Source of the DNA: Eledone cirrhosa
Taxonomy: Eukaryota
Assembly: GCA_964016885.1 (NCBI GenBank)
Contig: OZ024742.1
Coordinates: forward strand, 176,080,001-176,144,000
DNA length: 64,000 nt
Reading direction: 5' to 3'
Both the position numbers and the translations under genes were made by a program. The notes beneath the pieces are model-generated. The model worked only from the letters and a program-made list of their open reading frames with translations, did not search any database and had not been told where the DNA came from. Shown piece after piece: positions 1,132 to 59,219 of this stretch. Each line of letters opens with the position of its first letter. Within the stretch, counting starts at the first letter, position 1.

Positions 1132-1187
<56 letters not shown>

Positions 1188-1318
1188 GTGAGGTTTTTTT
1201 TACAAAATGAAAAGTAACCGAGGTGTCCTACACGAGTAAAAGTATAAAGAAAAAGAGATGAAATCGAAAATGCAACTGAAGTCTTATTTTAAAAAAAAAT
1301 ATATATATTTATTTGGTT

Positions 1319-1356
1319 CCTTTACCGGTTTCGCAGTTCTTCTGCTTTTCAAAAGG
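1319..1356 (-). ncRNA. Minimal type-I hammerhead ribozyme, U3-A8 variant (inverted copy)
   Basis: Exact reverse complement of 1490-1527. Confidence 0.65.
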
Positions 1357-1489
1357 TGAGTTGAGATGGAGGGTCTGTGGTTTTTCTCACATGGGCATAG
1401 TTCTTGAAGATAAGCAGATCAAAATGTGTTGATATAGCAAGAGTGCTTAGTTTATCCATGATGGAGGCAAATGGTAGCATCTCAACTCA

Positions 1490-1527
1490 CCTTTTGAAAA
1501 GCAGAAGAACTGCGAAACCGGTAAAGG
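1490..1527 (+). ncRNA. Minimal type-I hammerhead ribozyme, U3-A8 variant
   Basis: cctt-TTGAAAA-gcag(aagaa)ctgc-GAAA-ccgg-TA-aagg: 4-bp stem I, 4-bp stem II, palindromic ACCGGT stem III, GUA site. Confidence 0.65.
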
Positions 1528-1595
1528 AACCAAATAAATATATATTTTTTTTTAAAAATAAGACTTCAGTTGCATTTTCGATTTCATCTCTTTTT

Positions 1596-1659
<64 letters not shown>

Positions 1660-2997: not shown

Positions 2998-4790
2998 CAG
3001 CTGCATTTATCTTGCTTTATGTTCATACGAGTTATCACCAAGTCACAACCAGTGACCTCAAGAGACAACAAGGTCCGCCATGTTCAAGAAAGAACATACA
3101 TACTCACACATGCATCTTTAGGTGTTTAGACTTGTGATGTACTTATATTGACAGAATCTTCCTTAGTATATGGGCAGTTTCCATTAGTACTATCTTTTGT
3201 ATTTCTCCTATACGTGGGTTTCCTGGGATTTGCGATAAGTAATCATTAGACCCCTTAGGTATAATTCCTAGAGCGCCTACAGCCACTGGTATTGTTTTAG
3301 TTCTCAATTTCCACATTTTTCCAATTTCTATCTCCAGGTCCTTATACTCGCTCAATTTTTCAAATGTTTTTATAGATAGATTCTTGTTTATTGGAACGGA
3401 CATATCAATTGGCAGGCATACCCCTTTTTAAAGTACTTCAGTATTATATCAGGTTTATTTGCATCTATGTTTCGGTGTTTGGATGCTAAAGTTCCACAAG
3501 ATTGAGATATGATCTTTTTCAAGTATGGGAGGTGGTTGATGCTCCCAACAATTCTTTTGATGGGGCAGGTCAAAATGCTTACACATTATCAAATGTATGT
3601 ATTGTGCAGCTCTGTCATGCCTGTTTAGGTATTCGGTTGGAGCTATAGGACTGCACATTGAAATTATATGGTCAATGGTCTCTGGTTGTTTTTTACATAC
3701 ACGGCATAATGGGCTGCATCCATTTTTTATTAAGTTGGCTTGGTAATTTTTGTTGGCAGACACTGATCTTGTGCTGATATAATCAGACCATCAGTCTCCG
3801 ATTTCAGTCCAGAGGATGCCAACCACTGATGGGTTAAAGTTTTGTCAACATCAGGATTGTTAGCTCGTTATGGGTATTTTCCATATAGAGGCTTTTCTTG
3901 CCATTTCTTAGCCAGTTTCTGTAGCAGTTCTTTCTTTGCAGTTACTTTTACCTGCTTTGCTTTTTCTGTGTTTTCCATTTCAGCAGTAAATGGGACTTCT
4001 GAAATGTGTAGTCCATTACTGTATCTTTGTGCATCTTTTGTAATGGAGTATGATCTTTTGATGCTTTCGTGTTTCAAAACGAGTTTGATCATCCAACCAT
4101 GTGATTCCCTTAGATATGTATATAATCCAATTGTTGCAGTTTTCAACGCAATATCTAACTGGATTAACCCACGTCCTCCTTCTTTCCTAGGGAGATATAT
4201 TCTATCTGTATCTGCCTTAGGGTGATGCATTCTGTGCATGGTTAAGAATTTTCTAATTTTTGTATCGAGCCTACGGATCTCTGTGCTTGACCAGTTGATG
4301 ACATTGTAACTGCAGGTTACTACTGGTATGGCAAGCGTGTTTATGGCATCGATCCTATTCCTTGCATTCAATTCCGTTCTTAAGATTGCTCTTACTCTGC
4401 GGTAACATTCCTTCCTTATCCTTTCCCTCATTGTCGAGTGCTTGATTCCGTCTCCTTCACAAACACCTAGATATTTGTAAGTTTCCTCTTGATCAAGTTC
4501 TCTTATCACATTCCCCCGATCAAGATTAATGTCTGAACTTTTCAGCAGCTTTCCTCTGGTGAACGTTGCTTTGGCGCATTTATCTAGTCCAAACTCCATT
4601 TTAATGTCATCACTGAACTGCGCCACAGTGGATAATAACCCTTGCAATTGTTCATCATTTTTTACAAATAGTTTCAGGTCATCCATGTAGAACAAGTGAT
4701 TAATGGTTTTATCATAGACTTTATATCCATGTTTTGTTTCATTGAGCATTTTACTTAATGGTATAAGTGCGATGCAGAATAAAAGCGGTG
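2998..4790 (-). mobile_element. 5'-truncated Dong/R4-clade LINE (RT plus restriction-like endonuclease), pseudogenised
   Basis: ORF 3868-4749 HLFYMDDLKLF, YKYLG, GGRGL; ORF 3455-3763 CRVC..ETIDHIISMC..YLNRHD; NKPDII and EK..Y.DL RLE motifs; flanked both sides by (TTA)n. Confidence 0.92.
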
Positions 4791-4939
4791 TATTATTATT
4801 ATTATTGTTGTTACTATTATTATTACTTTTTTTTTTTCCCCCAATTCAATGATGTTCCAGAACAATATAAAAGAGATAATTGGCAATTTAGGTTCTGGAA
4901 CAATAAAGATAATTGGTAATAAGGGCAGTTTATCACAGC

Positions 4940-7900
4940 CTGGGTCCGCTCGTCATCGTGCCATTGTAATAGAGCCAAAATAAGGCATTTAGTCATGGCT
5001 GCTGGAACGTATGGACGCTGCTTGACAGGGATTCCTTGGAGCGTCCTGAACGAAGGACCGCTCTTGTTGCAAAGGAGCTTCGACGTTACGATATTGACAT
5101 CGTGGCTTTATCTGAAACGAGGTTAGCTGGAGATGGTGATCTTACAGAATTGTGTGGAGAATATACATTCTTCTGGAAAAGAAGATGTGAAGGAACCAGA
5201 CGAGAGGCTGGGGTAGCATTTGTTGTTAAGACTGTTCTTGTGAATAAATTAGAAGAATTCCCAGTAGGGATTAGTGAGCGTCTTATGTCCATGAGAATTC
5301 CGCTGGGCAAAGGAAGATATGCGACCCTGGTGAGTGTGTATGCTCCAATTATGAATTCTGTCGATGAATAAAAAGTGTCCTTTTACCATGCCTTGAAAGG
5401 TGTTTTAAGAAATATCCCTCAGGCAGACAAAGTCATCGTACTTGGTGACTTTAATGCTAGAGTGGGTAGGGATTTTAACACATGGAATGTAATCGGAAGG
5501 CATGGGGTGGGAAAGTGTAACAACAATGGTATGCTCCTACTGCAGATGTGTGAGAAGCTGGATCTGTGTGCTACCAACACCATGTTCCAACAAAAGAACA
5601 AATTCAAGACCACATGGATGCATCCTGCATCTAAGGAATGGCATCTTTTGGACTACGTCCTAGTCAGGATGCGTGACAGACAGGATGTGCAGTGTGTTCG
5701 TGCTCTTCGTGGAGCTGAGTGCTGGACGGACCACCGCCTGGTACGCGCAAAAGTGAAACTAATCACTAAACTTAAAATCCGGGCTCCTGGTGTTGCCCTG
5801 CCCAAAAGATTGAATGCTGCTCGTCTTAAGGATAAACATGTGAAGAGGACATTGCAAGAAGAGATGCAGGTTGCAGATCTTGGTGATAATTGTCCGACCC
5901 TTAAAAAGTCGGTTTATGATGTAGGCAGGCGTGTTCTGGGATTGGTGCAGAGAAAACATCAGGACTGGTTTAATGATAATGATGTACATATAGAAGACTT
6001 GTTGGCTGATAAGAGGCGTGCTCTGTCACACTACTTGACGGCAAAACCACAGGAGAGGAATACGTTGCATGAGGAACTCAAGGATGTAAAATCACGTGTT
6101 AGGTGGAGTCTTTCTCAGATGAAGGATCAGTGGTGGAGTGAGAAGGCTGATGAGATACAAACTGCGTCAGATTCCAATAACACAAAACTGTTGTACAGTT
6201 CCTTGTGTCAAGTTTATGGACCGTTTTTTATCTGGTGACACCGCTTCGCAGCAAGGATGGCAAATAACTTCTTCGTGACTCACAAGGAATTCTACGAAGG
6301 TGGCGAGAGCACTTTGATGATCGTTTGAATCAGCCGTCTGTCGTCAATGAAGATTTCGGCAATCTAATTCCAGAAAGTCCTGTGAAAGTAGCTCTCGCAG
6401 AACCACCGACGCTTGTGGAGGTTGCAGTGGCTATCTCGAAGCTGAACAGTGGAAGGTCTCCAGGTATAGAGGGCATACATGCTGAGCTCCTACAATATGG
6501 TGGTGAGGGACTCCTGCAACATCTTCACTCTTTGTTTGGCAGGATATGGGCTAATGAATCCGTACCTGAGGACTGGAGAGATGCAGTAATGGTGGTCTTG
6601 TACAAGGGAAAGGGTAACAGGAATGATTGTGGGAACTACAGAGCTATATCGTTGCTTTCTGTCGTAGGGAAAGTTTTATGTAGGGTGCTTCTGGACCGTC
6701 TGCTGACACACATTGCATATTGTGTTCTTCCTGAAAGTCGATCTGGTTTTCGTGTTGGACCCGGCACTACTGATATGATCTTCTCAGCTAGACAGCTCCA
6801 GGAGAAGTGCATGGAACAATGTTTAGATCTGTATCAGGTTTTTGTCGATCTGACAAAAGCTTTCGATACTGTTAACAGAAATGCATTATGGAAGGTTCTC
6901 CAGAACTTGGTTGCACTGATAAGCTCCTTGCTTTAGTTAGGTCTTTCCATGACGACATGAAGGCTTTGGTTAATGTTGGAGGTAACATGTCGGAACCTAT
7001 CTGAGTAAAAAATGGAGTGAAACAGGGGGATATTCCAGCACCGACCCTGTTTGCTATATACTTTGCAATGGTGTTCTGTATTGCATTCAAGAATTGCGAA
7101 CATGGTGTTTACATCCGATATCGAACATCAGGTAGCATATTTAACATCAGGTGCTTTGCTGCAAAGACAAAAGTATTTACACCAATCGTAAGAGACCTCT
7201 TATATGCAGAATATTGCGATCTGGTAGCGCACACAGAGAGTGATATGCAGCACATTTTGAATGCATTTTCTGACGCTTGCACTGCCCTAGGATTGACTAT
7301 CAGTCTCAAGAAAACCGTCGTCATGTACCAACCTGCCCTGGTAAGCAGTAAAGTGAACCAAATAGCTATGTGTATGTTAAACGACTTGAACTGGTTGATC
7401 AGTTTGTCTACCTGGGAAGCACTGTCAATCGATACAGCAACCTTGATAGTGAAATCTCACTTAGGATTAGGAAAGTAAGTGATGCTTTCGGAAAGCTAGA
7501 AAGGCGACTCTGGGGTCGGCGAGACATATGCAAGAAGACAATGGTAAATATGTACAAGGCATGTGTGCTCTCTTCTCTTCTTTATGCCTGCGAGACCTGG
7601 GTCACATATCGACACCACCTTAAGCAATTGTAGCGTTTCCATCAGATGTCTCTCTGACGGATCCATGGCGTTCACTGGAGGGATAACATCAGTGATGTCG
7701 AGATTTTGGAAAGCTCTATGTGTGACAGTATAGAAGCTCTTGTGCTTAAGCAACGACTCAGTTGGATTGGTCACCTTGCCAGGATGAAGAATTCTAGAAT
7801 ACCAAAACAACTCTTTTATAGAGAGTTAGTTAAAGGAAAACGACCGCCACATAAACCAAAAAAGAGGTATAAGAATTCCTTGAAAGCCTCTTTGAAAGAC

Positions 7901-8370
7901 GCTAACATCTCTGCTGATACATGGGAAAATATTACTGCTGATCGTAATACATGGAGAAAGACTGTATATGAGGGAAAAGTTGCCGTTGAGGCATCTCGAA
8001 TCGCATACGAGAAAGTAAAGGGCATTGCTGTTGTCTTCCAGACGGCGAGGGTCCTCCTATGGTGCTAACATGCAGCGTCTGTGCGAGACTCTGCCTAAGC
8101 AAAGCTGGACTCGAAAGTTATCTTCGCAGTCATAAAGTAAGACCAGTGGTTGACTACCAGGCTGATGTTGGAGGTGCTACTCATCATGCTTGCCAAGCAT
8201 GTGGTAAAGAATGTAAATCAGCAGGAGGGATCAAACGACATGTAAAAGTACCGAAACTCCAACCACAGCCGGCTATTCCCAGTGAATATCTTGGTTGCCG
8301 ATTCTGTGCAAAAGATTTTAGATCATTGGCTGGGCTAAAAAGACACATTCGATCGCAGCGCTGTTAGTTT
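4940..8370 (+). mobile_element. Near full-length RTE-clade LINE (APE endonuclease, RT, C-terminal C2H2 fingers) with stops and frameshifts
   Basis: RPERRTALVAKEL..ALSETR, VYAP, GDFNARVG, LDYVLV, TDHRLV; RT NYRAISLLS, FVDLTKAFDTV, KQGD..APTLF, LLYAE; three CxxC..GL..H..(H) units at 8059-8367. Confidence 0.93.
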
Positions 8371-14867: not shown

Positions 14868-15367
14868 AATAGGATTTAGCTTCAAGCATAGCTGTATACA
14901 GATATGTATAGAAATTTCGTATTTCTAAAGAAATACGGTATGTTTACAGGGTAAACATTTAGGAAGCCGTAGCTATGCAAAACACCGGGGCTAGCGCCCT
15001 CTAACACTCGAGAATATTTCTTTAGAAATACGAAATTTCTATACATATCTGTATACATTGATACTTGAAGCTAAATCCTATTTCTATTCTAAGTTGAGCC
15101 AACTTAGGCAGCTTCATATGCAAATGAGATTAATCACCTCATTTACACAGACGTGAAAACTATATATTATCCACTTGTTCTCAAGTCTAGCAGTCGCAAA
15201 TGTGGGAGATATCGTCCTGATGAAGATTAGTTAAGTCTGAAATGCATAGACAATTGTCCCCCTTGCTTCTGCTGGACACCACCAGAGGACATTAGCCCCG
15301 GTGTTTTGCATAGCTACGGCTTCCTAAATGTTTACCCTGTAAACATACCGTAAATGAAATTTCTATA
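14861..15367 (+). mobile_element. HHR-bearing non-coding element (family C) with 5' inversion, in (TA)n
   Basis: 14861-14995 is the reverse complement of 15292-15352 joined to 15018-15088; homologous to 17030-17465 and 41614-41690. Confidence 0.8.
15211..15254 (+). ncRNA. Minimal type-I hammerhead ribozyme
   Basis: atcgtc-CTGATGA-agat(tagttaa)gtct-GAAA-tgca-TA-gacaat; palindromic ATGCAT stem III; one stem I mismatch. Confidence 0.78.
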
Positions 15368-17029: not shown

Positions 17030-17464
17030 GAATTTCGTATTCCTACAGAAATACGGTATGTTTATAAATAAACATTTAGAAAGCTATAGCTATGAATAAC
17101 ATGCTGGTAGCTAACACACCCAGGTGGTGCCTGGCAGGAGCCAACTTATACAGCTTCATATGCAAATGAGATTAATCACCTCATTTACACAGATGAATAT
17201 ATATATTTTCGGCTGTTTTCAAAGTCCGGCAGCTGCAAGAGCGGGAGAGATCGTCCTGATGAGAATTAGTTCAGTTCGAAAAGTATCGACGATTGTCCCC
17301 CTTGCTTCTGCTAGGTATGGCCTGGTGGCATTAGCTACCAGTATGTTATTCATAGCTATGGCTTTCTAAATGTTTATTTATAAAAATAACGTATTTCTTT
17401 AGAAATACGAAATTGAACTACATATTTGTATACAGTTATGTTGGAAGCTAAATTCTAATTCTAT

Positions 17465-26489: not shown

Positions 26490-28720
26490 CTAATAGTAAT
26501 AATAATAATAAATTTGAAGACTAAAATCCAAAGAGGGCTCGATAAGGATAAATATATATCAAATATATAGGAACCGTAGAGCAAATATTTAATAAAAGAA
26601 CAGATTAAAGTTTAAGCAAAGAATCGCTGCATTCACCCATAACGGGATCTGCTGAAACTAACAAAGTCAATCTGTGAACGCAGAAGTGAATATTTCAAAA
26701 AACGTTGCAACCGGAGGAAGACAGGAAGACGATACTTTGCTTCGTGGAAACGTTCCCTAGCAAAGAACGGGAAGAAACGAATATAATAAGTCACTATTTG
26801 GAGCGGTGAAAAACAATTACACGCAAAGACAGAACCACGTTTATGGTATAAAAGAAGTCGTAGACTAATATTTTATTAGGTGGTTCATACAGACGTTCTC
26901 TAGCAATGAACGGAAACAACGAAGATAATACGTCATATATGGAGCGGGGAGAACAATTGCACGCAAATACAAAACCACGTAAATGGTATAACTGAAGTCG
27001 TAGACTAAAATTCTAACTAGGAAACCGAATGATTCTCGACTTCAGAGTTAAGAATAAAGTAAATAAAATACAGAGGTAATAGAAATTAAATAAATACATA
27101 CACGCATCCATATACGTATATACACAAGCTTACGCGAAAACACTCGCCATAGGTATACAAATACACGCACGTACACAAAAAAAGAGAAAAAAAAACAAAA
27201 AACCCGCACGCACATACAGAACCCACGCAACGCCTGTATCCGCACGCATAAGAATGAATACACCAAACACACATAAAATATATATTTAAAAAAAGATATA
27301 TATATATGTGTTTGTGTGTGTGTGTGTGTATACATATAATTAAATAAACGTATATAAATAAATAAATACGTATATAACAAGCGCACAACATACCTACATG
27401 TAAATACTCATATGTTCGGAGACGTACGTCAACCAAAACACAAAGTACACATATACACACACACTACATACGTACGAACCCGCATACACACACAGACGCA
27501 AAGCTCCAGTGTACACATAAGCAAAGCATATGTACCAGAATATATAAGATATACGCCATAACCTATACAATAAAATATACGTACGAGAAAGTATACGTAC
27601 CTTCACAAAACATACAGGTAATATATACTTACCTATACAAATAATTAATGGTATAAACATAACATATACTTAGCTACCACATCAAGACGTAAAATATCCG
27701 CGTATAGTTCGTACTATCCGTTAGGGTATAATGTGGGGCTGTAATACAGGAAAATTTTGTGCAATTTATGTTTACAAGCCGAAATTGCTTCTGATTTTTT
27801 GTTTAAGATGTTGTCTTTGGCATAGAGTATTTCCAGGGCTTCAGCGGCGCAGAGGTCACAAGGTTTTTATTTCCGTTATACGATCTAGCCTTAGCTTGGA
27901 TCTCCCAGTGTAACTTATATTGGGTTTAGTTGTCTTTTAGACTCCAGATATAAGCTGAAAGTGACGTGATATTCCTTCTTAAAAGGTAACGAAAAGAATA
28001 GGTGGGCATGTAAAGACGCTGCTTGAATCTATTGGCGGTTAACCCTATGTAAGCCCTACGGGACGTGGGTGTTTCAACCTTACATTTGTAGACAATGTTA
28101 CTAGAGAGGCATTTCCCGGATAGGGGGCAGTCAACCCAATTTCTACAATTACAGTTAGTACTAACTACAGGGTTGCACGTGTTCCTACGGCTAGGTAGTT
28201 TAGCTAAATTTGAAGCTGTGATGTTATGTGGAAGGTTAGGAGTTGTAGAGTAAGACATTTTAATAGTATTTCTATTAAACATTTTACTATATTTATGTGT
28301 AGGGGGAAAATGTTTTGTAATAAGGGAGAGAAAGATCTTAGTTAATGGTGTGGCCACCTCCATATTATAAGGTGGGTTATACCATATAATGCATCGGGAT
28401 CTATTTCTTCTAGGTCTCTTCTCGTACTCTGTATAAGCTACCTTATCGACAAATCTACTCCGAGCAAGAGCTTCATTGTAATATGTGGAATGGTCGTTGA
28501 AAATATGCTCGTTAGTAGATAGACGGGAAAGCCTCAAAGGAACGTTTCTTACCTGGTTCTTGGTTATGCTGGCAGGATGGTTAGAATGCATACTTATATA
28601 ATTAAGCGTATCATTCGCTTACTATGCGGGTAATGCAAGCCATTCGATAAATTGAGGGTAACGTCGAGGTAATCAACGACCGAGAGGTTGGCCTCAACCA
28701 GTATGGAGAGGTTGAAGCTC
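26490..28720 (-). mobile_element. 5'-truncated Penelope-like element: RT C-terminus, Cys-rich linker, GIY-YIG endonuclease, long 3' UTR/pLTR
   Basis: ORF 27926-28591 SNHP, IIWYNPP, HFP..H..KMFN.NT.K.SYS, CNCR..CPL.GKCL, IVYKC..YIGLT..FKQR; shifted frame CDLCAAE..ILNKKSE..SACKH near 27760-27860. Joining the 26490-27700 tail to it is inference. Confidence 0.85.
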
Positions 28721-33633: not shown

Positions 33634-33860
<227 letters not shown>

Positions 33861-33979
33861 ATAAGTTGTAATATAATGAAACGAAATCTCATTTCGCACG
33901 CTTAGTACGGCACTTACTTAAATGTAAGTATGTATGTATACGTACATACATATATCTATACAGACGTACAGTAGCATGC

Positions 33980-34068
<89 letters not shown>

Positions 34069-34217
34069 CAGGTACACATATATATATGTACGTATCAGTT
34101 TAGCGAGCGTTTATTATATCGCCCGCTTTGTTCGTTTGTAAACAAGCGAACAGCCTGATTTATGCCATACGGTGTTAAGGCAACCACGTCACCCTTTTGT
34201 TCAACACTGACACAGGA

Positions 34218-34260
34218 ACGATGTACTAGTTTCAAGCTTGTTAACTATCATCAGCACCGT
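34218..34260 (-). ncRNA. Minimal type-I hammerhead ribozyme
   Basis: acggtg-CTGATGA-tagttaacaagctt-GAAA-ctag-TA-catcgt. Confidence 0.82.
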
Positions 34261-34495
34261 ATACCCTTCTGCCAGATAGTTGAACGTTTGAAAGTATATA
34301 CTTTCCTTATGAAAATTAACGGCTGAGCAGCCTAATTTGCATATCGAGTGAGTTAAGTCGGCCAGGCGTACCGAAAACGATAAGTTGTAATATAATGAAA
34401 CGAAATTTCATTTCTCACTCTTAGTACGGCACTTACTTAAATGTAAGTATGTATGTATACGTACATACATATATCTATACAGACGTACAGTAGCA

Positions 34496-34553
<58 letters not shown>

Positions 34554-34702
34554 CAGGTACACATATATATATGTACGTATCAGTTTAGCGAACGTTTACT
34601 ATAACGCCCGCTTTGTTCGTTTGTAAACAAGCGAACAGCCTGATTTATGCCATACGGTGTTAAGGCAACCACGTCACCTTTTTGTTCAACACTGACACAG
34701 GA

Positions 34703-34745
34703 ACGATGTACTAGTTTCAAGCTTGTTAGCTATCAGCAGCACCGT
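34703..34745 (-). ncRNA. Hammerhead copy with A6C core mutation (probably inactive)
   Basis: Same fold but core reads CTGCTGA (change at 34736). Confidence 0.7.
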
Positions 34746-34980
34746 ATACCCTTCTGTCAGATAGTTGAACGTTCGAAAGTATATACTTTCTTTATGAAAA
34801 TTAACGGCTGAGCTGCCTAATTTGCATATCGAGTGAGTTAAGTCGGCCAGGCGTACCGAAAACGATAAGTTGTAATATAATGAAACGTAATTTCATTTCT
34901 CACTCTTAGTACGGCACTTACTTAAATGTAAGTATGTATGTATACGTACATACATATATGTATACAGACGTACAGTAGCA

Positions 34981-35022
<42 letters not shown>

Positions 35023-35366
35023 CAGGTACACATATATATATGTACGTATCAGTTTACCGAACGTTTATTATAACGCCCACTTTGTTCGTTTGTAAACAAT
35101 CGAACAGCCTGATTTCTGCCATACGGTGTTAAGGCAACCACGTCACCTTTTATTTATTTTTTTTTTTTTTTACTTACATATTTACTTTTAATAAGTGCCG
35201 TACTAAGAGTGAGAAATGAAATTTCGTTTCATTATATTACAACTTATCGTTTTCGGTACGCCTGGCCGACTTAACTCACTCGATATGCAAATTAGGCTGC
35301 TCAGCCGTTAATTTTCATAAGGAAAATATATACTTTCGAACGTTCAACTATCTAGCAGAAGGGTAT

Positions 35367-35409
35367 ACGGTGCTGATGATAGCTAACAAGCTTGAAACTA
35401 GTACATCGT
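35367..35409 (+). ncRNA. Minimal type-I hammerhead ribozyme
   Basis: acggtg-CTGATGA-t-agct(aaca)agct-t-GAAA-ctag-TA-catcgt; 6-bp stem I, palindromic ACTAGT stem III, GUA site. Confidence 0.85.
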
Positions 35410-35568
35410 TCCTGTATCAGTGTTGAACAAAAAGGTGATGTGGTTGCCTTAACACCCTATGGCATAAATCAGTCTGTTCGCTTGTTTACAAACGAACAAA
35501 GCGGGCGTTATAATAAAGGTTCGCTAAACTGATACGTACATATATATATGTGTACCTGTATGTATATA

Positions 35569-35648
<80 letters not shown>

Positions 35649-35719
35649 TGCTACTGTACGTCTGTATACATATATGTATGTACGTATACATACATACTTA
35701 CACATATATATATAAATAA

Positions 35720-41050: not shown

Positions 41051-41930
41051 AATGTGTGTGTGTATTTAGGATATCCTTAGATGAAACACCAAGGAAACCA
41101 ATGCTCAATCTATTACAAGTAAGCTTATATAGTATAATTAAAATTTCATACACTTAGCATATATGTACAACCTTAGTTTTGGATGTCCAGTTTCCGCCAC
41201 CACTGTATAGAAAAGGAGATGTTCAAATACGGGCTTTTCATCCGGCATTAAGAAGAATTACAACAAAAAAGACAGTTAACTCACACAGTATTGCCTTATT
41301 CCATGGAGAGCTCTTTTTCAAGTAATATGGAGGCAATTCACAAAGCAATATTCAAATACTAGGGGCTAGAATCTTTGAAACGTCTGCATGCATAATATGT
41401 GCATGACTTAAGTTTTAAGTTCATCTCTGTCTATGTGTAATATGCACGTGTCTTGAGATATAAGCTAATATTTTTAAATCTTGAAAACATTAAAGGAGTT
41501 TACTACAAACAGACCATAGGATGTTTGTTCTTAAGGAGATCCTTCTCAGTAAGACGTATTTATAAATGTATATGTTACTTAGTGCATATGTTATTCTGCA
41601 AACATTTAAATCATTTCTTTGGAAATACGAAATTCCTATACATATCTGTATAAAGCTATGCTCAAAGATAAATCCTAATTCTATTCTTTTCTAACTAATT
41701 TTTAAATTACCTGCATTTGTTTAAACTCTTATGATATATTTCTAAAAGGAAATTACAATCAACCCCAGGTGGCCATCTTTTTTTTCATTTTTCTTATGAC
41801 AGGCTGAATGAGTTGGGGGCCAGGTCCCAACGATACATAAGTACCTGTTATTATTTCTAGCAATATTATTACAACAATATGACCCTCCCCAAGTATAACA
41901 ATACATATATATATATATATATATATATAT

Positions 41931-44900
41931 GATTGTAGACTTGTTCTATATGTGACGGTATTTTAACGATAGTTATAGCTCTGATTCATCTGAATTATTG
42001 AGCCCTCTGCCGCTCATATCGAATTTCGTTTTTCGTGAACTCGTGCGCCGATTTTTCGATACTCGATCTTTCTAATATATTTAGCTCTGGACATAGCTAT
42101 CCACCAGTTAATTTTATTGCTCATTTTTTGTCGATTCTATTGAGTGATGAATAGCTTTTGTTTTATTTTAACATGTCTATTGAGCACTCTAATTCGATAT
42201 GTGTATTTCCACATTCACTCGAATTGTTTTCGCGGATATAGGGGTCATCTCCCTTGTCTAATGCCATGTGCGTTTTTCACCGCTAGTTGACTCCTCTGCC
42301 GCCAGGAAAAAACTCGTTGACAACGTAAACTCCATTCCACTTATTCTAGTAGGCTTTTATATTTATATGTGAGCTGATAGAGTACAGTCTAAGGATTTAC
42401 AGAAACCCATGAAGCTAGATTTAACACCTTTCTAGTGGGTCCGGGTATGATTTTACATTCATTTAAATTATTGACGTATTGTTTTATTGATATTTTTTAT
42501 CTGTTTGGCCCGAATCTTCCTTTATCGATTTTAAATCGTATGGTTGATTGTAGACTTGTTCTATATGTGACGGTATTTTAACGATAGTTATAGCTCTGAT
42601 TCATCTGAATTATTGAGCCCTCTGCCGCTCATATCGAATTTCGTTTTTCGTGAACTCGTGCGCCGATTTTTCGATACTCGATCTTTCTAATATATTTAGC
42701 TCTGGACATAGCTATCCACCAGTTAATTTTATTGCTCATTTTTTGTCGATTCTATTGAGTGATGAATAGCTTTTGTTTTATTTTAACATGTCTATTGAGC
42801 ACTCTAATTCGATATGTGTATTTCCACATTCACTCGAATTGTTTTCGCGGATATAGGGGTCATCTCCCTTGTCTAATGCCATGTGCGTTTTTCACCGCTA
42901 GTTGACTCCTCTGCCGCCAGGAAAAAACTCGTTGACAACGTAAACTCCATTCCACTTATTCTAGTAGGCTTTTATATTTATATGTGAGCTGATAGAGTAC
43001 AGTCTAAGGATTTACAGAAACCCATGAAGCTAGATTTAACACCTTTCTAGTGGGTCCGGGTATGATTTTACATTCATTTAAATTATTGACGTATTGTTTT
43101 ATTGATATTTTTTATCTGTTTGGCCCGAATCTTCCTTTATCGATTTTAAATCGTATGGTTGATTGTAGACTTGTTCTATATGTGACGGTATTTTAACGAT
43201 AGTTATAGCTCTGATTCATCTGAATTATTGAGCCCTCTGCCGCTCATATCGAATTTCGTTTTTCGTGAACTCGTGCGCCGATTTTTCGATACTCGATCTT
43301 TCTAATATATTTAGCTCTGGACATAGCTATCCACCAGTTAATTTTATTGCTCATTTTTTGTCGATTCTATTGAGTGATGAATAGCTTTTGTTTTATTTTA
43401 ACATGTCTATTGAGCACTCTAATTCGATATGTGTATTTCCACATTCACTCGAATTGTTTTCGCGGATATAGGGGTCATCTCCCTTGTCTAATGCCATGTG
43501 CGTTTTTCACCGCTAGTTGACTCCTCTGCCGCCAGGAAAAAACTCGTTGACAACGTAAACTCCATTCCACTTATTCTAGTAGGCTTTTATATTTATATGT
43601 GAGCTGATAGAGTACAGTCTAAGGATTTACAGAAACCCATGAAGCTAGATTTAACACCTTTCTAGTGGGTCCGGGTATGATTTTACATTCATTTAAATTA
43701 TTGACGTATTGTTTTATTGATATTTTTTATCTGTTTGGCCCGAATCTTCCTTTATCGATTTTAAATCGTATGGTTGATTGTAGACTTGTTCTATATGTGA
43801 CGGTATTTTAACGATAGTTATAGCTCTGATTCATCTGAATTATTGAGCCCTCTGCCGCTCATATCGAATTTCGTTTTTCGTGAACTCGTGCGCCGATTTT
43901 TCGATACTCGATCTTTCTAATATATTTAGCTCTGGACATAGCTATCCACCAGTTAATTTTATTGCTCATTTTTTGTCGATTCTATTGAGTGATGAATAGC
44001 TTTTGTTTTATTTTAACATGTCTATTGAGCACTCTAATTCGATATGTGTATTTCCACATTCACTCGAATTGTTTTCGCGGATATAGGGGTCATCTCCCTT
44101 GTCTAATGCCATGTGCGTTTTTCACCGCTAGTTGACTCCTCTGCCGCCAGGAAAAAACTCGTTGACAACGTAAACTCCATTCCACTTATTCTAGTAGGCT
44201 TTTATATTTATATGTGAGCTGATAGAGTACAGTCTAAGGATTTACAGAAACCCATGAAGCTAGATTTAACACCTTTCTAGTGGGTCCGGGTATGATTTTA
44301 CATTCATTTAAATTATTGACGTATTGTTTTATTGATATTTTTTATCTGTTTGGCCCGAATCTTCCTTTATCGATTTTAAATCGTATGGTTGATTGTAGAC
44401 TTGTTCTATATGTGACGGTATTTTAACGATAGTTATAGCTCTGATTCATCTGAATTATTGAGCCCTCTGCCGCTCATATCGAATTTCGTTTTTCGTGAAC
44501 TCGTGCGCCGATTTTTCGATACTCGATCTTTCTAATATATTTAGCTCTGGACATAGCTATCCACCAGTTAATTTTATTGCTCATTTTTTGTCGATTCTAT
44601 TGAGTGATGAATAGCTTTTGTTTTATTTTAACATGTCTATTGAGCACTCTAATTCGATATGTGTATTTCCACATTCACTCGAATTGTTTTCGCGGATATA
44701 GGGGTCATCTCCCTTGTCTAATGCCATGTGCGTTTTTCACCGCTAGTTGACTCCTCTGCCGCCAGGAAAAAACTCGTTGACAACGTAAACTCCATTCCAC
44801 TTATTCTAGTAGGCTTTTATATTTATATGTGAGCTGATAGAGTACAGTCTAAGGATTTACAGAAACCCATGAAGCTAGATTTAACACCTTTCTAGTGGGT

Positions 44901-46373
44901 CCGGGTATGATTTTACATTCATTTAAATTATTGACGTATTGTTTTATTGATATTTTTTATCTGTTTGGCCCGAATCTTCCTTTATCGATTTTAAATCGTA
45001 TGGTTGATTGTAGACTTGTTCTATATGTGACGGTATTTTAACGATAGTTATAGCTCTGATTCATCTGAATTATTGAGCCCTCTGCCGCTCATATCGAATT
45101 TCGTTTTTCGTGAACTCGTGCGCCGATTTTTCGATACTCGATCTTTCTAATATATTTAGCTCTGGACATAGCTATCCACCAGTTAATTTTATTGCTCATT
45201 TTTTGTCGATTCTATTGAGTGATGAATAGCTTTTGTTTTATTTTAACATGTCTATTGAGCACTCTAATTCGATATGTGTATTTCCACATTCACTCGAATT
45301 GTTTTCGCGGATATAGGGGTCATCTCCCTTGTCTAATGCCATGTGCGTTTTTCACCGCTAGTTGACTCCTCTGCCGCCAGGAAAAAACTCGTTGACAACG
45401 TAAACTCCATTCCACTTATTCTAGTAGGCTTTTATATTTATATGTGAGCTGATAGAGTACAGTCTAAGGATTTACAGAAACCCATGAAGCTAGATTTAAC
45501 ACCTTTCTAGTGGGTCCGGGTATGATTTTACATTCATTTAAATTATTGACGTATTGTTTTATTGATATTTTTTATCTGTTTGGCCCGAATCTTCCTTTAT
45601 CGATTTTAAATCGTATGGTTGATTGTAGACTTGTTCTATATGTGACGGTATTTTAACGATAGTTATAGCTCTGATTCATCTGAATTATTGAGCCCTCTGC
45701 CGCTCATATCGAATTTCGTTTTTCGTGAACTCGTGCGCCGATTTTTCGATACTCGATCTTTCTAATATATTTAGCTCTGGACATAGCTATCCACCAGTTA
45801 ATTTTATTGCTCATTTTTTGTCGATTCGATTGAGTGATGAATAGCTTTTGTTTTATTTTAACATGTCTATTGAGCACTCTAATTCGATATGTGTATTTCC
45901 ACATTCACTCGAATTGTTTTCGCGGATATAGGGGTCATCTCCCTTGTCTAATGCCATGTGCGTTTTTCACCGCTAGTTGACTCCTCTGCCGCCAGGAAAA
46001 AACTCGTTGACAACGTAAACTCCATTCCACTTATTCTAGTAGGCTTTTATATTTATATGTGAGCTGATAGAGTACAGTCTAAGGATTTACAGAAACCCAT
46101 GAAGCTAGATTTAACACCTTTCTAGTGGGTCCGGGTATGATTTTACATTCATTTAAATTATTGACGTATTGTTTTATTGATATTTTTTATCTGTTTGGCC
46201 CGAATCTTCCTTTATCGATTTTAAATCGTATGGTTGATTGTAGACTTGTTCTATATGTGACGGTATTTTAACGATAGTTATAGCTCTGATTCATCTGAAT
46301 TATTGAGCCCTCTGCCGCTCATATCGAATTTCGTTTTTCGTGAACTCGTGCGCCGATTTTTCGATACTCGATC

Positions 46374-46385
<12 letters not shown>
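41931..46385. repeat. Tandem array of a 615-bp non-coding unit, 7.24 copies, inserted in (TA)n
   Basis: Unit starts at 41931, 42546, 43161, 43776, 44391, 45006, 45621, 46236; only one substitution seen by eye (45828 T>G). Confidence 0.97.
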
Positions 46386-46418
<33 letters not shown>

Positions 46419-47059
46419 TATCCATCCAGAGCACTGATAATAATTCCTAATTGTTGCTAGATCGGCAACTGCTCTGTTTAATCAGGTTTTAAACATCACT
46501 GGAATTCTATAAGAATCCAGCTTCTATAAATCTTGGCAGAAGCTAAGGGATATGCAATCTTGATAACCGCTAACAAGCGAGAAATGGCTGTCGCTTGATT
46601 CCCTTTGTTTTTGCCAAGACTAAGTGACATAGTCATTACTTTAAAACTCATAACGAATGGTCTTCAAAATGTTTTAAAATAAACATACAGTATATTATCA
46701 AATATACTCTACATACATTCATACATACATCACTATTCCAGAAAACTGATACTAATTCCTAATACATATATATATATATATATAAATGAATGCATATACT
46801 GCATATTAAAAGTGTTTCGCAGCAATCATTACACAATGAACTTTAATATGAAATTATCTGTTTGATGTGTGGCCGAGCTATATCCTATTATTTTAAAGTA
46901 TGTTAATGTATTAATTGCTATCAGTGATTTGCGTGATGTCTATGGAAAAGGATAAAAGAATATATTAATTTAGTTAATTTGATATTCTAATATTCCTCAC
47001 TTAAAGCACGTCAATATAGAAGGAGTGAATAAAAGAAATATGACAATATATAAAGAGTA

Positions 47060-53196: not shown

Positions 53197-53202
<6 letters not shown>

Positions 53203-54210
53203 ATACTTGGGGAGGGTCATATGTGTGTAATATTGCCAGAATTAATAACAGAACACACTCACTGTTTGGTTGGTTTTCGATTCTCGCTTCTGTGTCTTTT
53301 ATATCGGTAATCTAACTTACTCGGTCCTCAATGTTGCCATTGACTGACCGACGGTCAAAAATAATACAGATACAATATAGACACAAACACATATATATAG
53401 TTTATCATAAATCTTTCGTTGCACATCTGCAACATCGTCAGTGTTGCTATATTTTCCTCCTGTTGTATTGTATGTCTACGCCATTTTTATTCAGTCTGTC
53501 TATATATTTATTTATTTATTTGCTTGTTTGTTTATTTTATTTTGTCTTCTTTGCGCATCCGTTTGCGTGTGTGTATAGTGTTTTGTTTGCTGTATGATGT
53601 GTGACTAGTGTGTGTTTATGTGCTTGTTGTTATTGTGCTTGTGTATGTATTTATTTATTTATTTATTTAATTTTATTTACTTATTTATACTTCTCTTAGG
53701 TCAGTGTTGTTTGGTTGGGTGTTGTTGTTATTCCATTCATTCTTTCTGTTTAGTCTTGGTCTTCTAATTTCTATTTCACTGGCCTCTCTGATTTGCCTAT
53801 CTGCTGGGTAATTTCTATGTTTAGATATTATTTTAATTTCTATGTTGTCTATGTTACCGTCATGTTGTTGTCTAACATGTTCGTATAGTACTGACCCGTT
53901 TTTTTCGTCCTTTTAGTTCCCCCCAGTGTTGGTCTATCCTTTCACCTATGCTACGAGTTGTCTCACCTATGTATGTTGTTGTCATGTTTCTGCAAGTACC
54001 CTCTGTACATCTTATGCTATAGACTACGTTTCTAGTTTTACAGTTTATCCGGGGGTTCAATTTACATATGATACATTTCCAACCAAACAGTGAGTGTGTT
54101 CTGTTATTAATTCTGGCAATATTACACAAATATGACCCTCCCCAAGTATAACAATATTTGTTTCGACACACGATTTCATATAATAAACCTCGCAAAACCA
54201 ATTCATCGCC
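53197..54210 (-). mobile_element. Penelope-like fragment (GIY-YIG) with ~75-bp inverted termini
   Basis: CIIC..CKTRNVVYSIRC..C..YIGETTRSIGERIDQH, then shifted LYEH..RQIREASEI..PRLNRKNEW; 53197-53273 inverted vs 54079-54154. Confidence 0.85.
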
Positions 54211-58595: not shown

Positions 58596-58597
<2 letters not shown>

Positions 58598-59219
58598 TTA
58601 GAAAATATATAGCTTTCACCGTATTTTTGACTAAAGGAATTTTAGCTTGATAACGGGGTTTAGAACCCCCAGATGAATGGAAAAAGATGAGTATTGACGT
58701 ACATGGGAGTCGAACCCACATCTGTGGTTATCGCGACCACTGTGCTACCATTACACCCATCACCCATCTCTTTCCATTCAAATTAGAAACTACATTCTTA
58801 GCGGGTTCGACTCCCATGTACGTCAATACTCATCTTTTTCCATTTATCTGAGGGTTCTAAACCCCGTTATCAAGCTAAAATTCCTTTAGTCAAAAATACG
58901 GTGAAAGCTATATATTTTCTAATTTCAAACTCGCTCACTGTTTCAAAACATACTTACTTGCCATTTAAACTCGCTAAGAATGTAGTTTCTAATTTGAATG
59001 GAAAGAGATGAGTGATGTGTTGGTGTAATGGTAGCACAGTGGTCGCGATAACCACAGATGTGGGTTCGACTCCCATGTACGTCAATACTCATCTTTTTCC
59101 ATTTATCTGAGGGTTCTAAACCCCGTTATCAAGCTAAAATTCCTTTAGTCAAAAATACGATGAAAGCTATATATTTTCTAATTTTAAACTCGCTCACTGT
59201 TTCAAAACATACTTACTTG
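58596..59219. repeat. 259-bp unit containing a tRNA-like gene: ~1.6 tandem copies plus an inverted copy, in (TA)n
   Basis: GGGTTCGACTCCC at 58803 and 59062; 58596-58803 is the reverse complement of about 58972-59182. Confidence 0.85.
59014..59084 (+). tRNA. tRNA-like cloverleaf with atypical anticodon loop (pseudo-tRNA)
   Basis: Acceptor gatgtgt/gtacgtc (G-U rich), D gtgt/gcac, anticodon stem gtggt/accac with loop cgcgata, T gtggg-TTCGACT-cccat; A and B boxes; TTTTT at 59094-59098. Confidence 0.55.

What the first reader, a model, noticed from the sequence alone, without database searches (positions are those of the whole stretch)
41931..46385. Near-perfect 7.24 x 615-bp concatemer in a (TA)n tract: possible rolling-circle insertion
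Seen: 4455 bp of essentially identical complex units (one substitution noticed, at 45828), a non-integer copy number, no credible ORF, and (TA)n on both sides. The right end shares TATAT microhomology with the tract. It looks far younger than anything else here. Inference: a single recent event copying a 615-nt circular template (circular RNA by a processive RT, or eccDNA), not a satellite that expanded gradually. The target and junction style match the HHR elements in this window. A short relic of the 53197-54210 Penelope terminus lies just upstream (about 41850-41902).
Basis: partly seen in the sequence, partly recalled or inferred. Interest (0 to 1): 0.8.

Follow-up and report, generated by a model that had tools for sequence, protein, structure and literature searches.

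The report
Retrozyme-like array with hidden hammerhead
This block of seven near-identical 615-base repeats is one young copy of an abundant, protein-free repeat whose every unit holds a predicted self-cutting RNA motif, and it was likely pasted into an AT repeat by a borrowed Penelope-type retrotransposon enzyme copying a small RNA, probably a circle, which is a known kind of animal jumping element in an unusual form.

Summary
In detail: 7.24 units of 615 bp (41930-46385), one substitution (45828), (TA)n on both sides, no ORF. Public runs hold the unit as closed 615-nt cycles and, in one run, as a deep, diverse family. Two contigs there end in (TA)n at the same point as this array's right end, so that end looks fixed rather than random-phase. 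Best reading: a non-LTR retrozyme-like element inserted in one event by a Penelope-like reverse transcriptase, likely from a circular RNA. Cleavage, the circle, the helper and this locus's copy number are untested; a linear multimer template remains open. This scan already noted such arrays elsewhere in this genome, including a 615-nt one with a hidden hammerhead; those notes gave me the lead. One addition: the array's end motif TTTCTAAT recurs at the TA junctions of two unrelated elements in the window (post hoc, suggestive only).

The parts
41930..46385 (+). Tandem array, 7.24 x 615 bp, non-coding, about 36% GC; + strand is the inferred RNA sense
   Evidence: sense inferred from the hammerhead strand
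42312..42446 (+). Predicted type I hammerhead, unit 1: stem I 42312-16/42442-46; core UUGACAA (U3-A8) 42317-23; C42324 opposite A42401; stem II 42325-42400; GAAA 42402-05; stem III 42405-09/42436-40; predicted cut after 42441
   Evidence: stems II and III form unconstrained (pair probabilities mostly 0.9 or more, end pairs of stem III 0.4-0.8); stem I only 0.01-0.1; hammerhead fold 1.1 kcal/mol above the local minimum; 0 of 3000 shuffles reach 5/5/5 bp
42927..46136 (+). Six further identical hammerhead copies starting at 42927, 43542, 44157, 44772, 45387 and 46002
45828..45828 (+). Only substitution (T>G, unit 7); absent from all 4 runs laid on it
46374..46385 (+). Right (3') terminus TTTCTAAT running into (AT)n; inferred reverse-transcription start, 249-254 nt downstream of the predicted cut
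   Evidence: 2 contigs of X2 end in ATATAT behind the equivalent position 42080
41905..41930 (.). Left (TA)n tract joined directly to the inferred truncated 5' end; no inverted second arm
46380..46415 (.). Right (TA)n tract, inferred primer side
41845..41903 (+). Older relic of the terminus of the Penelope-like element at 53198-54204; neighbour, not homologous to the unit

Best explanation
The array is a young, near-identical 7.24-unit copy of a multi-copy non-coding repeat with a predicted U3-A8 hammerhead ribozyme in every full unit, likely inserted in one event when a Penelope-like reverse transcriptase copied the element's RNA, probably a 615-nt circle, round and round from a nick in a (TA)n tract. 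Shown: the array, the TA flanks, the hammerhead motif, the family, head-to-tail junctions in other data, and the same 3' end in other contigs. Inferred: (1) read-through transcripts of genomic arrays are cut by the hammerhead into monomers and ligated into circles; (2) a GIY-YIG endonuclease nicks (TA)n and the 3' end pairs with the UAUAU in the RNA just after UUUCUA; (3) the enzyme starts inside the RNA, about 250 nt downstream of the cut site, runs 7.24 rounds and stops; (4) the cDNA end is joined to the other half of the tract. The helper is likely a (TA)n-targeting Penelope-like clade such as Hydra, but it is not identified.
For: Hammerhead in 7 of 7 full units; 0 of 3000 dinucleotide shuffles (both strands) give stems of 5/5/5 bp, 2 give 4/4/3 and 27 give 4/3/1. 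None of 8 listed substitution sites in the 135-nt motif hits its 40 core or inner-stem positions (P=0.055); one is N7 and two keep outer stem II pairs. X1 holds one closed 645-nt unitig (a 615 cycle, 2 differences); X3 also shows the end-to-start joint; X2 lays 515 contigs, with that joint at depth 8990. Two X2 contigs end in ATATAT behind 42080, and summed depth falls from 158,308 to 22,558 there. The 45828 variant stays in one unit. Literature: tandem cDNA from a primed circRNA with Penelope-like helpers is proposed in PMC7229834; U3-A8 cores occur in Schistosoma Penelope-like elements (PMC4209133); internal initiation after cutting AT-rich DNA was shown in vitro (PMC11167929); Hydra and Naiad clades target (TA)n (PMC8557442). 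The window holds a Hydra-like fragment with a CxCX5C linker and two-armed hammerhead elements at TA tracts.
Against: Stem I is barely populated in the predicted ensemble (0.01 in the circle), and the extra A before GAAA is non-canonical, so the ribozyme may be slow or dead; 8 of 9 predicted Xenopus retrozymes did not cleave in vitro. The descriptor was widened after seeing the motif. 42386 A>U in X1 and X3 breaks an outer stem II pair; a one-base insertion falls in inner stem II in one depth-3 contig of X6, 59 variant rows were not shown, and a deep X10 contig is unalignable across 45967-46079, the first half of the motif. In PMC11167929 unprocessed linear RNA was the main substrate and ribozyme cleavage was not needed. 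No homology between the unit and any Penelope-like fragment in the window or, by 10 short motifs, in the Craig et al. supplement. No A>G editing mark relative to the X1 cycle. Summed contig depth is not copy number, and the shared right end rests on 2 contigs.
Confidence: 0.55

Rival explanations
1. Same element and helper, but the template was a linear multimeric read-through transcript of a young, homogeneous donor array: ordinary Penelope-type partial-tandem insertion with no circle.
For: Penelope-like elements make partial tandems, and non-autonomous Chlamys elements make multicopy head-to-tail insertions (PMC8557442). Unprocessed RNA was the main substrate in vitro. Stem I is weak.
Against: Family copies in X2 are diverse (of 515 contigs, 175 at 99% or more, 158 at 95-99, 140 at 90-95, 42 under 90), yet the units here differ at 1 of 4456 sites; an active hammerhead would cut multimers.
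Confidence: 0.27
2. A short retro-insertion (1-2 units) was expanded in place at the DNA level, by unequal exchange or by rolling-circle copying of an excised DNA circle.
For: Local amplification of retrozyme repeats is proposed in bioRxiv 10.64898/2026.07.22.740005. Closed 615-nt unitigs cannot tell arrays from DNA circles.
Against: The single variant is not shared between units. Flanks are not co-amplified. The end coincides with the family's TA-joined end. eccDNA would not predict a ribozyme or a fixed end.
Confidence: 0.1
3. The family is real but the copy number at this locus is an assembly or consensus-polishing artefact.
For: No run spans the locus. Near-perfect identity could follow from polishing, and the 45828 G is seen in none of 4 runs.
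Against: Head-to-tail joints exist in 3 runs of 3 studies. Both junctions are clean. Seven units is within the usual range for retrozymes.
Confidence: 0.07

Closest known systems
Metazoan non-LTR retrozymes (Cervera and de la Pena 2020, PMC7229834; Li, Clavereau and Pollet 2026, bioRxiv 10.64898/2026.07.22.740005)
   Same: Non-coding, low-GC tandem units with one type I hammerhead each; no LTR signals; unit size and copy number inside the reported ranges (51-972 bp; 75% of families with at most 7 units); Penelope-like helper proposed.
   Different: U3-A8 core, 76-nt stem II, long self-contained stem III and an extra A before GAAA, where canonical animal motifs have 6-bp and 4-bp helices and a 1-2 bp helix III. 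Monomer longer than the 170-400 nt invertebrate circles. Cleavage and circles are untested here.
Non-autonomous Penelope-like elements (Chlamys-derived MRC1 type) and the Hydra clade, including Hydra-1_Obim (PMC8557442)
   Same: Multicopy head-to-tail partial tandems, fixed 3' end, (TA)n target. The Hydra-1_Obim consensus has a hammerhead near its 3' end and TTTCTAA 26 nt before its end.
   Different: No sequence similarity to an autonomous element was found. No inverted second arm or tail at this locus.
U3-A8 minimal hammerheads of Schistosoma Cercyon elements (PMC4209133)
   Same: U3-A8 covariation, 5-bp helix I, unpaired base 5' of helix II.
   Different: Those are minimal motifs with a 7-8 bp helix II and mostly single; this one has long helices II and III and sits in a tandem array.

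Membership tests
non-LTR retrozyme | Head-to-tail tandem units, dimers to multimers | tested here: met
non-LTR retrozyme | Type I hammerhead motif in every unit | tested here: met
   7 of 7 full units; 0 of 3000 shuffles; prediction only
non-LTR retrozyme | Canonical or minimal helix sizes and C3-G8 core | tested here: not met
   U3-A8 core, 76-nt stem II, extra A; missed by scans limited to stem II of 50 nt or less. Filed therefore as a variant that works like a retrozyme
non-LTR retrozyme | Non-coding, GC under 50%, no LTR, PBS or PPT | tested here: met
   no TG..CA ends, primer site or purine tract at either end by reading the sequence
non-LTR retrozyme | Self-cleavage | not testable with these tools
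   folding only; stem I weak
non-LTR retrozyme | Expressed as circular RNA | not testable with these tools
   no RNA data were laid
non-LTR retrozyme | Dispersed, multi-copy family | tested here: met
   515 contigs of graded identity in X2 and diverged subfamilies in X10 and X8; loci not counted, no genome held
non-autonomous Penelope-like element | Fixed 3' end with variable 5' truncation (partial tandem) | tested here: inconclusive
   right end shared by 2 X2 contigs; left-end variability not seen because the tool skipped the TA tract
non-autonomous Penelope-like element | 3' sequence similarity to an autonomous element | tested here: inconclusive
   none in the window or by short motifs in one supplement; only a 7-nt motif shared with Hydra-1_Obim; genome not searchable
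non-autonomous Penelope-like element | Microsatellite target that hides a target-site duplication | tested here: met
   (TA)n on both sides; longest shared flank word 7 nt
non-autonomous Penelope-like element | Inverted truncated arm or 30-40 bp tail (optional feature) | tested here: not met
   absent at this locus; present in other window elements
TRIM / non-autonomous LTR array | TG..CA terminal repeats with PBS and PPT | tested here: not met
   read from the sequence on both strands
viroid-like circular RNA | Rod-like fold, ribozymes on both polarities, no genomic family | tested here: not met
   branched fold, 62% paired, z -2.5; no motif on the minus strand; genomic family present

The most novel reading that the evidence does not exclude
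The array records rolling-circle reverse transcription of a ribozyme-made RNA circle by a Hydra-clade Penelope enzyme, and the short signal UUUCUAAU is the start site that lets unrelated RNAs (this 615-nt circle, a minimal-hammerhead element at 1182-1598 and a tRNA-derived element at 58597-59219) hijack the same enzyme. That would define the cis signal of Penelope-dependent parasites, including tRNA-derived ones.
Probability: 0.2. Interest if true: 0.7.

Novelty: new variant of a known kind. Interest (0 to 1): 0.4.

Why it matters
How animal retrozymes enter genomes has been proposed (primed circular RNA, tandem cDNA, Penelope-like helper) but was not shown in the passages I read. A young, near-perfect array with a defined start point, plus a candidate start motif shared by unrelated elements, gives a concrete substrate for an in vitro test. 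The ribozyme form also escapes Rfam and short-stem descriptors, so retrozyme surveys may undercount. The value of this single locus is limited: the class is known and this scan has many similar notes from the same genome.

Tried and rejected
No whole genome was held, so loci, phases and helper could not be counted. My first hammerhead reading used CUGAUAGA at 42374; it has no stem I and was dropped. Scans capped at a 50-nt stem II missed the real motif. Rfam gave only two tRNA hits at 58.7-59.1 kb and nothing credible in the unit. TRIM/LTR, coding repeat and viroid-like RNA were rejected (see membership). Sequencing runs: no RNA holder listed; this says nothing on expression. X18 gave 0 reads from about 1 in 100 of the run, which is no test. 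The 11 stronger holders carry 8 organism labels from 7 studies; X2, X6, X8 and X10 also hold unrelated flank repeats at 46620-46720, so related hosts or trace DNA can explain the spread and I make no horizontal-transfer claim. Left-end variability was not visible because the TA tract was skipped. Metagenome patterns gave 0 hits and 32 hits with no real extension beyond the pattern (best 22 nt at 95%, or 39 nt at 79%); viral contigs gave 0. Earlier-finding look-ups by sequence found no look-alike, so identity with the 615-nt note is unverified. Eight paper searches listed no description of this unit or of a cephalopod retrozyme; the library lacks most subscription journals. The O. vulgaris supplement (listed) and the bioRxiv supplements were not read and may hold the family.

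Full report
Observation. The array is as described. Identity at lag 615 extends from 41930 to 46385 (4456 bp, 7.24-7.25 units) with one substitution, 45828 T>G in unit 7. (TA)n tracts flank it at 41905-41930 and 46380-46415. The right end overlaps its tract by 5-6 nt and the left by one. The unit is about 36% GC and T-rich on +, has no frame above 62 aa, no Pfam hit in 3 frames tested and no Rfam match. It has no homologue elsewhere in the window (best BLAST hit 49 nt, 78%, AT-rich). The relic at 41845-41903 is about 90% identical to both termini of the Penelope-like element at 53198-54204 but unrelated to the unit. One difference in 4456 sites would mean about 62,000 years (95% range 1,600-347,000) if one borrows the rate implied by PMC13282606 (0.09 per 25 million years; passages). 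The host is only presumed to be a cephalopod, from earlier notes and repeat style, and a copying or assembly error would make the array younger still.

A hidden hammerhead. My first scans found no proper hammerhead. Earlier notes of this scan on other DNA of the same genome mention a 615-nt array with a hidden non-canonical hammerhead and 591-nt arrays with a U3-A8 core, so I re-read the unit. On the + strand, UUGACAA (42317-23) and GAAA (42402-05) are joined by a 76-nt stem II. Stem III (42405-09/42436-40) ends in GUC, and stem I pairs 42312-16 with 42442-46. Stems II and III form without constraint (most pair probabilities 0.9 or more); stem I is at 0.01-0.1, and the hammerhead fold lies 1.1 kcal/mol above the local minimum. 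With a general descriptor (C3-G8 or U3-A8, stem II up to 100 nt, both strands), 0 of 3000 dinucleotide shuffles gave stems of 5/5/5 bp, 2 gave 4/4/3 and 27 gave 4/3/1; the descriptor was widened after I saw the motif. The motif occurs in 7 of 7 full units and not on the minus strand. Of 8 substitution sites listed in the motif, none hits the 40 core or inner-stem positions (P=0.055). One is the variable N7, two keep outer stem II pairs and one breaks such a pair. This support is weak: 59 rows were not shown, a depth-3 contig has an insertion in inner stem II, and a deep X10 contig is unalignable across the first half of the motif. U3-A8 cores and an unpaired base 5' of helix II are described for Schistosoma Penelope-like elements (PMC4209133; part 1 of 4 and passages). 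The extra A before GAAA and the long stem II are not in what I read. Activity is untested.

It is a family, with a shared right end. No genome was held. A run search with one unit listed 17 holders among 24 rows, 11 with half the words or more. Laid on one unit, X1 gave a single closed 645-nt unitig, that is a 615-nt cycle with 2 differences; X3 also showed the end-to-start joint; X2 gave 515 contigs of graded identity, the joint at depth 8990, and difference-free unitigs at depths 6500 and 7323. Two X2 contigs run into ATATATATATATA behind 42080, the unit position where this array meets its right tract, and summed depth falls there from 158,308 to 22,558. The tool warns that such depth is no copy number; I read it only as a sign of many copies ending at that point. 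Laid on 45771-46740, none of 4 runs carried the 45828 G, diverged subfamilies appeared in X10 and X8, no piece spanned the locus, and the TA tract was skipped, so left-end variability is untested.

Mechanism. Taking + as RNA sense, the right end is the 3' end of the insertion, 249-254 nt downstream of the predicted cut. A fixed internal start fits the one Penelope-like enzyme studied in vitro, which cuts AT-rich DNA and starts reverse transcription inside its RNA (PMC11167929; parts 1-2 of 4). Hydra and Naiad clades target (TA)n, and non-autonomous relatives make multicopy head-to-tail insertions (PMC8557442; passages and sections 6 and 11). Tandem cDNA from a primed circular RNA with Penelope-like helpers is the model proposed for animal retrozymes (PMC7229834; passages), and a 2026 preprint links them to Penelope terminal repeats and reports units of 51-972 bp (10.64898/2026.07.22.740005; parts 1-3 of 5). 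I favour a circle because units are identical within the array while the family is diverse. A homogeneous young donor transcribed as a multimer would look the same, and PMC11167929 found unprocessed RNA to be the main substrate. I found no RNA-editing mark: against the X1 cycle the array has A where X1 has G or T. Unlike several neighbours, this insertion has one arm only.

A possible start signal. The array ends in TTTCTAAT then (AT)n. The same junction occurs at 1181 (a two-armed element with U3-A8 minimal hammerheads at 1352 minus and 1494 plus) and at 58598 (a two-armed tRNA-derived element whose other arm ends 37 nt further on). That is 3 of 112 TA junctions; given the first, two more has P about 0.004. 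After I filtered simple flanks and collapsed duplicates, the 58598 junction was dropped by the filter, leaving 2 of 47, and two other 6-mers also recurred twice. The published Hydra-1_Obim consensus has TTTCTAA 26 nt before its end (supplement search). The window holds a decayed Hydra-like fragment with a CxCX5C linker at 27.9-28.6 kb (no Pfam hit), not similar to the unit.

Verdict. A real, young copy of a retrozyme-like, probably Penelope-mobilised element with an atypical hammerhead: a new variant of a known kind. Eight paper searches listed no account of this family; unread supplements could hold it. The scan has noted the same pattern many times in this genome; those notes are unchecked leads, and I could not confirm that the 615-nt note concerns this family. 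Cleavage, circle, helper and locus copy number remain open. Interest 0.4.

Noticed in passing
window 1182-1598: Two-armed, mirror-image element between TA tracts with U3-A8 minimal hammerheads at 1352 (-) and 1494 (+); the left arm runs about 60 nt beyond the right arm's end and ends in TTTCTAAT.
   Followed up: partly
window 58597-59219: tRNA-derived (Rfam/tRNA hits 58695-58761 minus, 59014-59084 plus) two-armed partial tandem between TA tracts, 96-99% identical arms; one arm ends at TTTCTAAT, the other 37 nt further on, like a Penelope tail. Possible tRNA-derived element moved by a Penelope-like enzyme.
   Followed up: partly
window 33860-35702: Older two-armed 485-bp array with an internal (TA)n and C3-G8 hammerheads at 34254 (-) and 35373 (+); units 97% identical outside the TA run.
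   Followed up: partly
window 53198-54204 and 41845-41903: Penelope-like element with a GIY-YIG frame on the minus strand (Pfam E=0.0017, below cut-off). The recurring TA-joined terminus reads antisense to that frame, the opposite of what sense-strand priming predicts; unexplained.
   Followed up: partly
window 27750-28700 (-): Decayed Hydra-clade-like Penelope C-terminus with a CxCX5C linker and GIY-YIG-like motif.
   Followed up: partly
window 15205-15260 and 17244-17320: Two related C3-G8 type I hammerhead motifs in a dispersed repeat.
   Followed up: no
runs X1-X11: The unit is held at half its words or more by runs with 8 organism labels from 7 studies, while other runs of labels A, D and G hold next to none; related hosts or trace DNA not distinguished.
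   Followed up: partly
window 3868-4845 (-) and 4973-8367 (+): Two decayed LINE-type reverse transcriptase/endonuclease copies.
   Followed up: no
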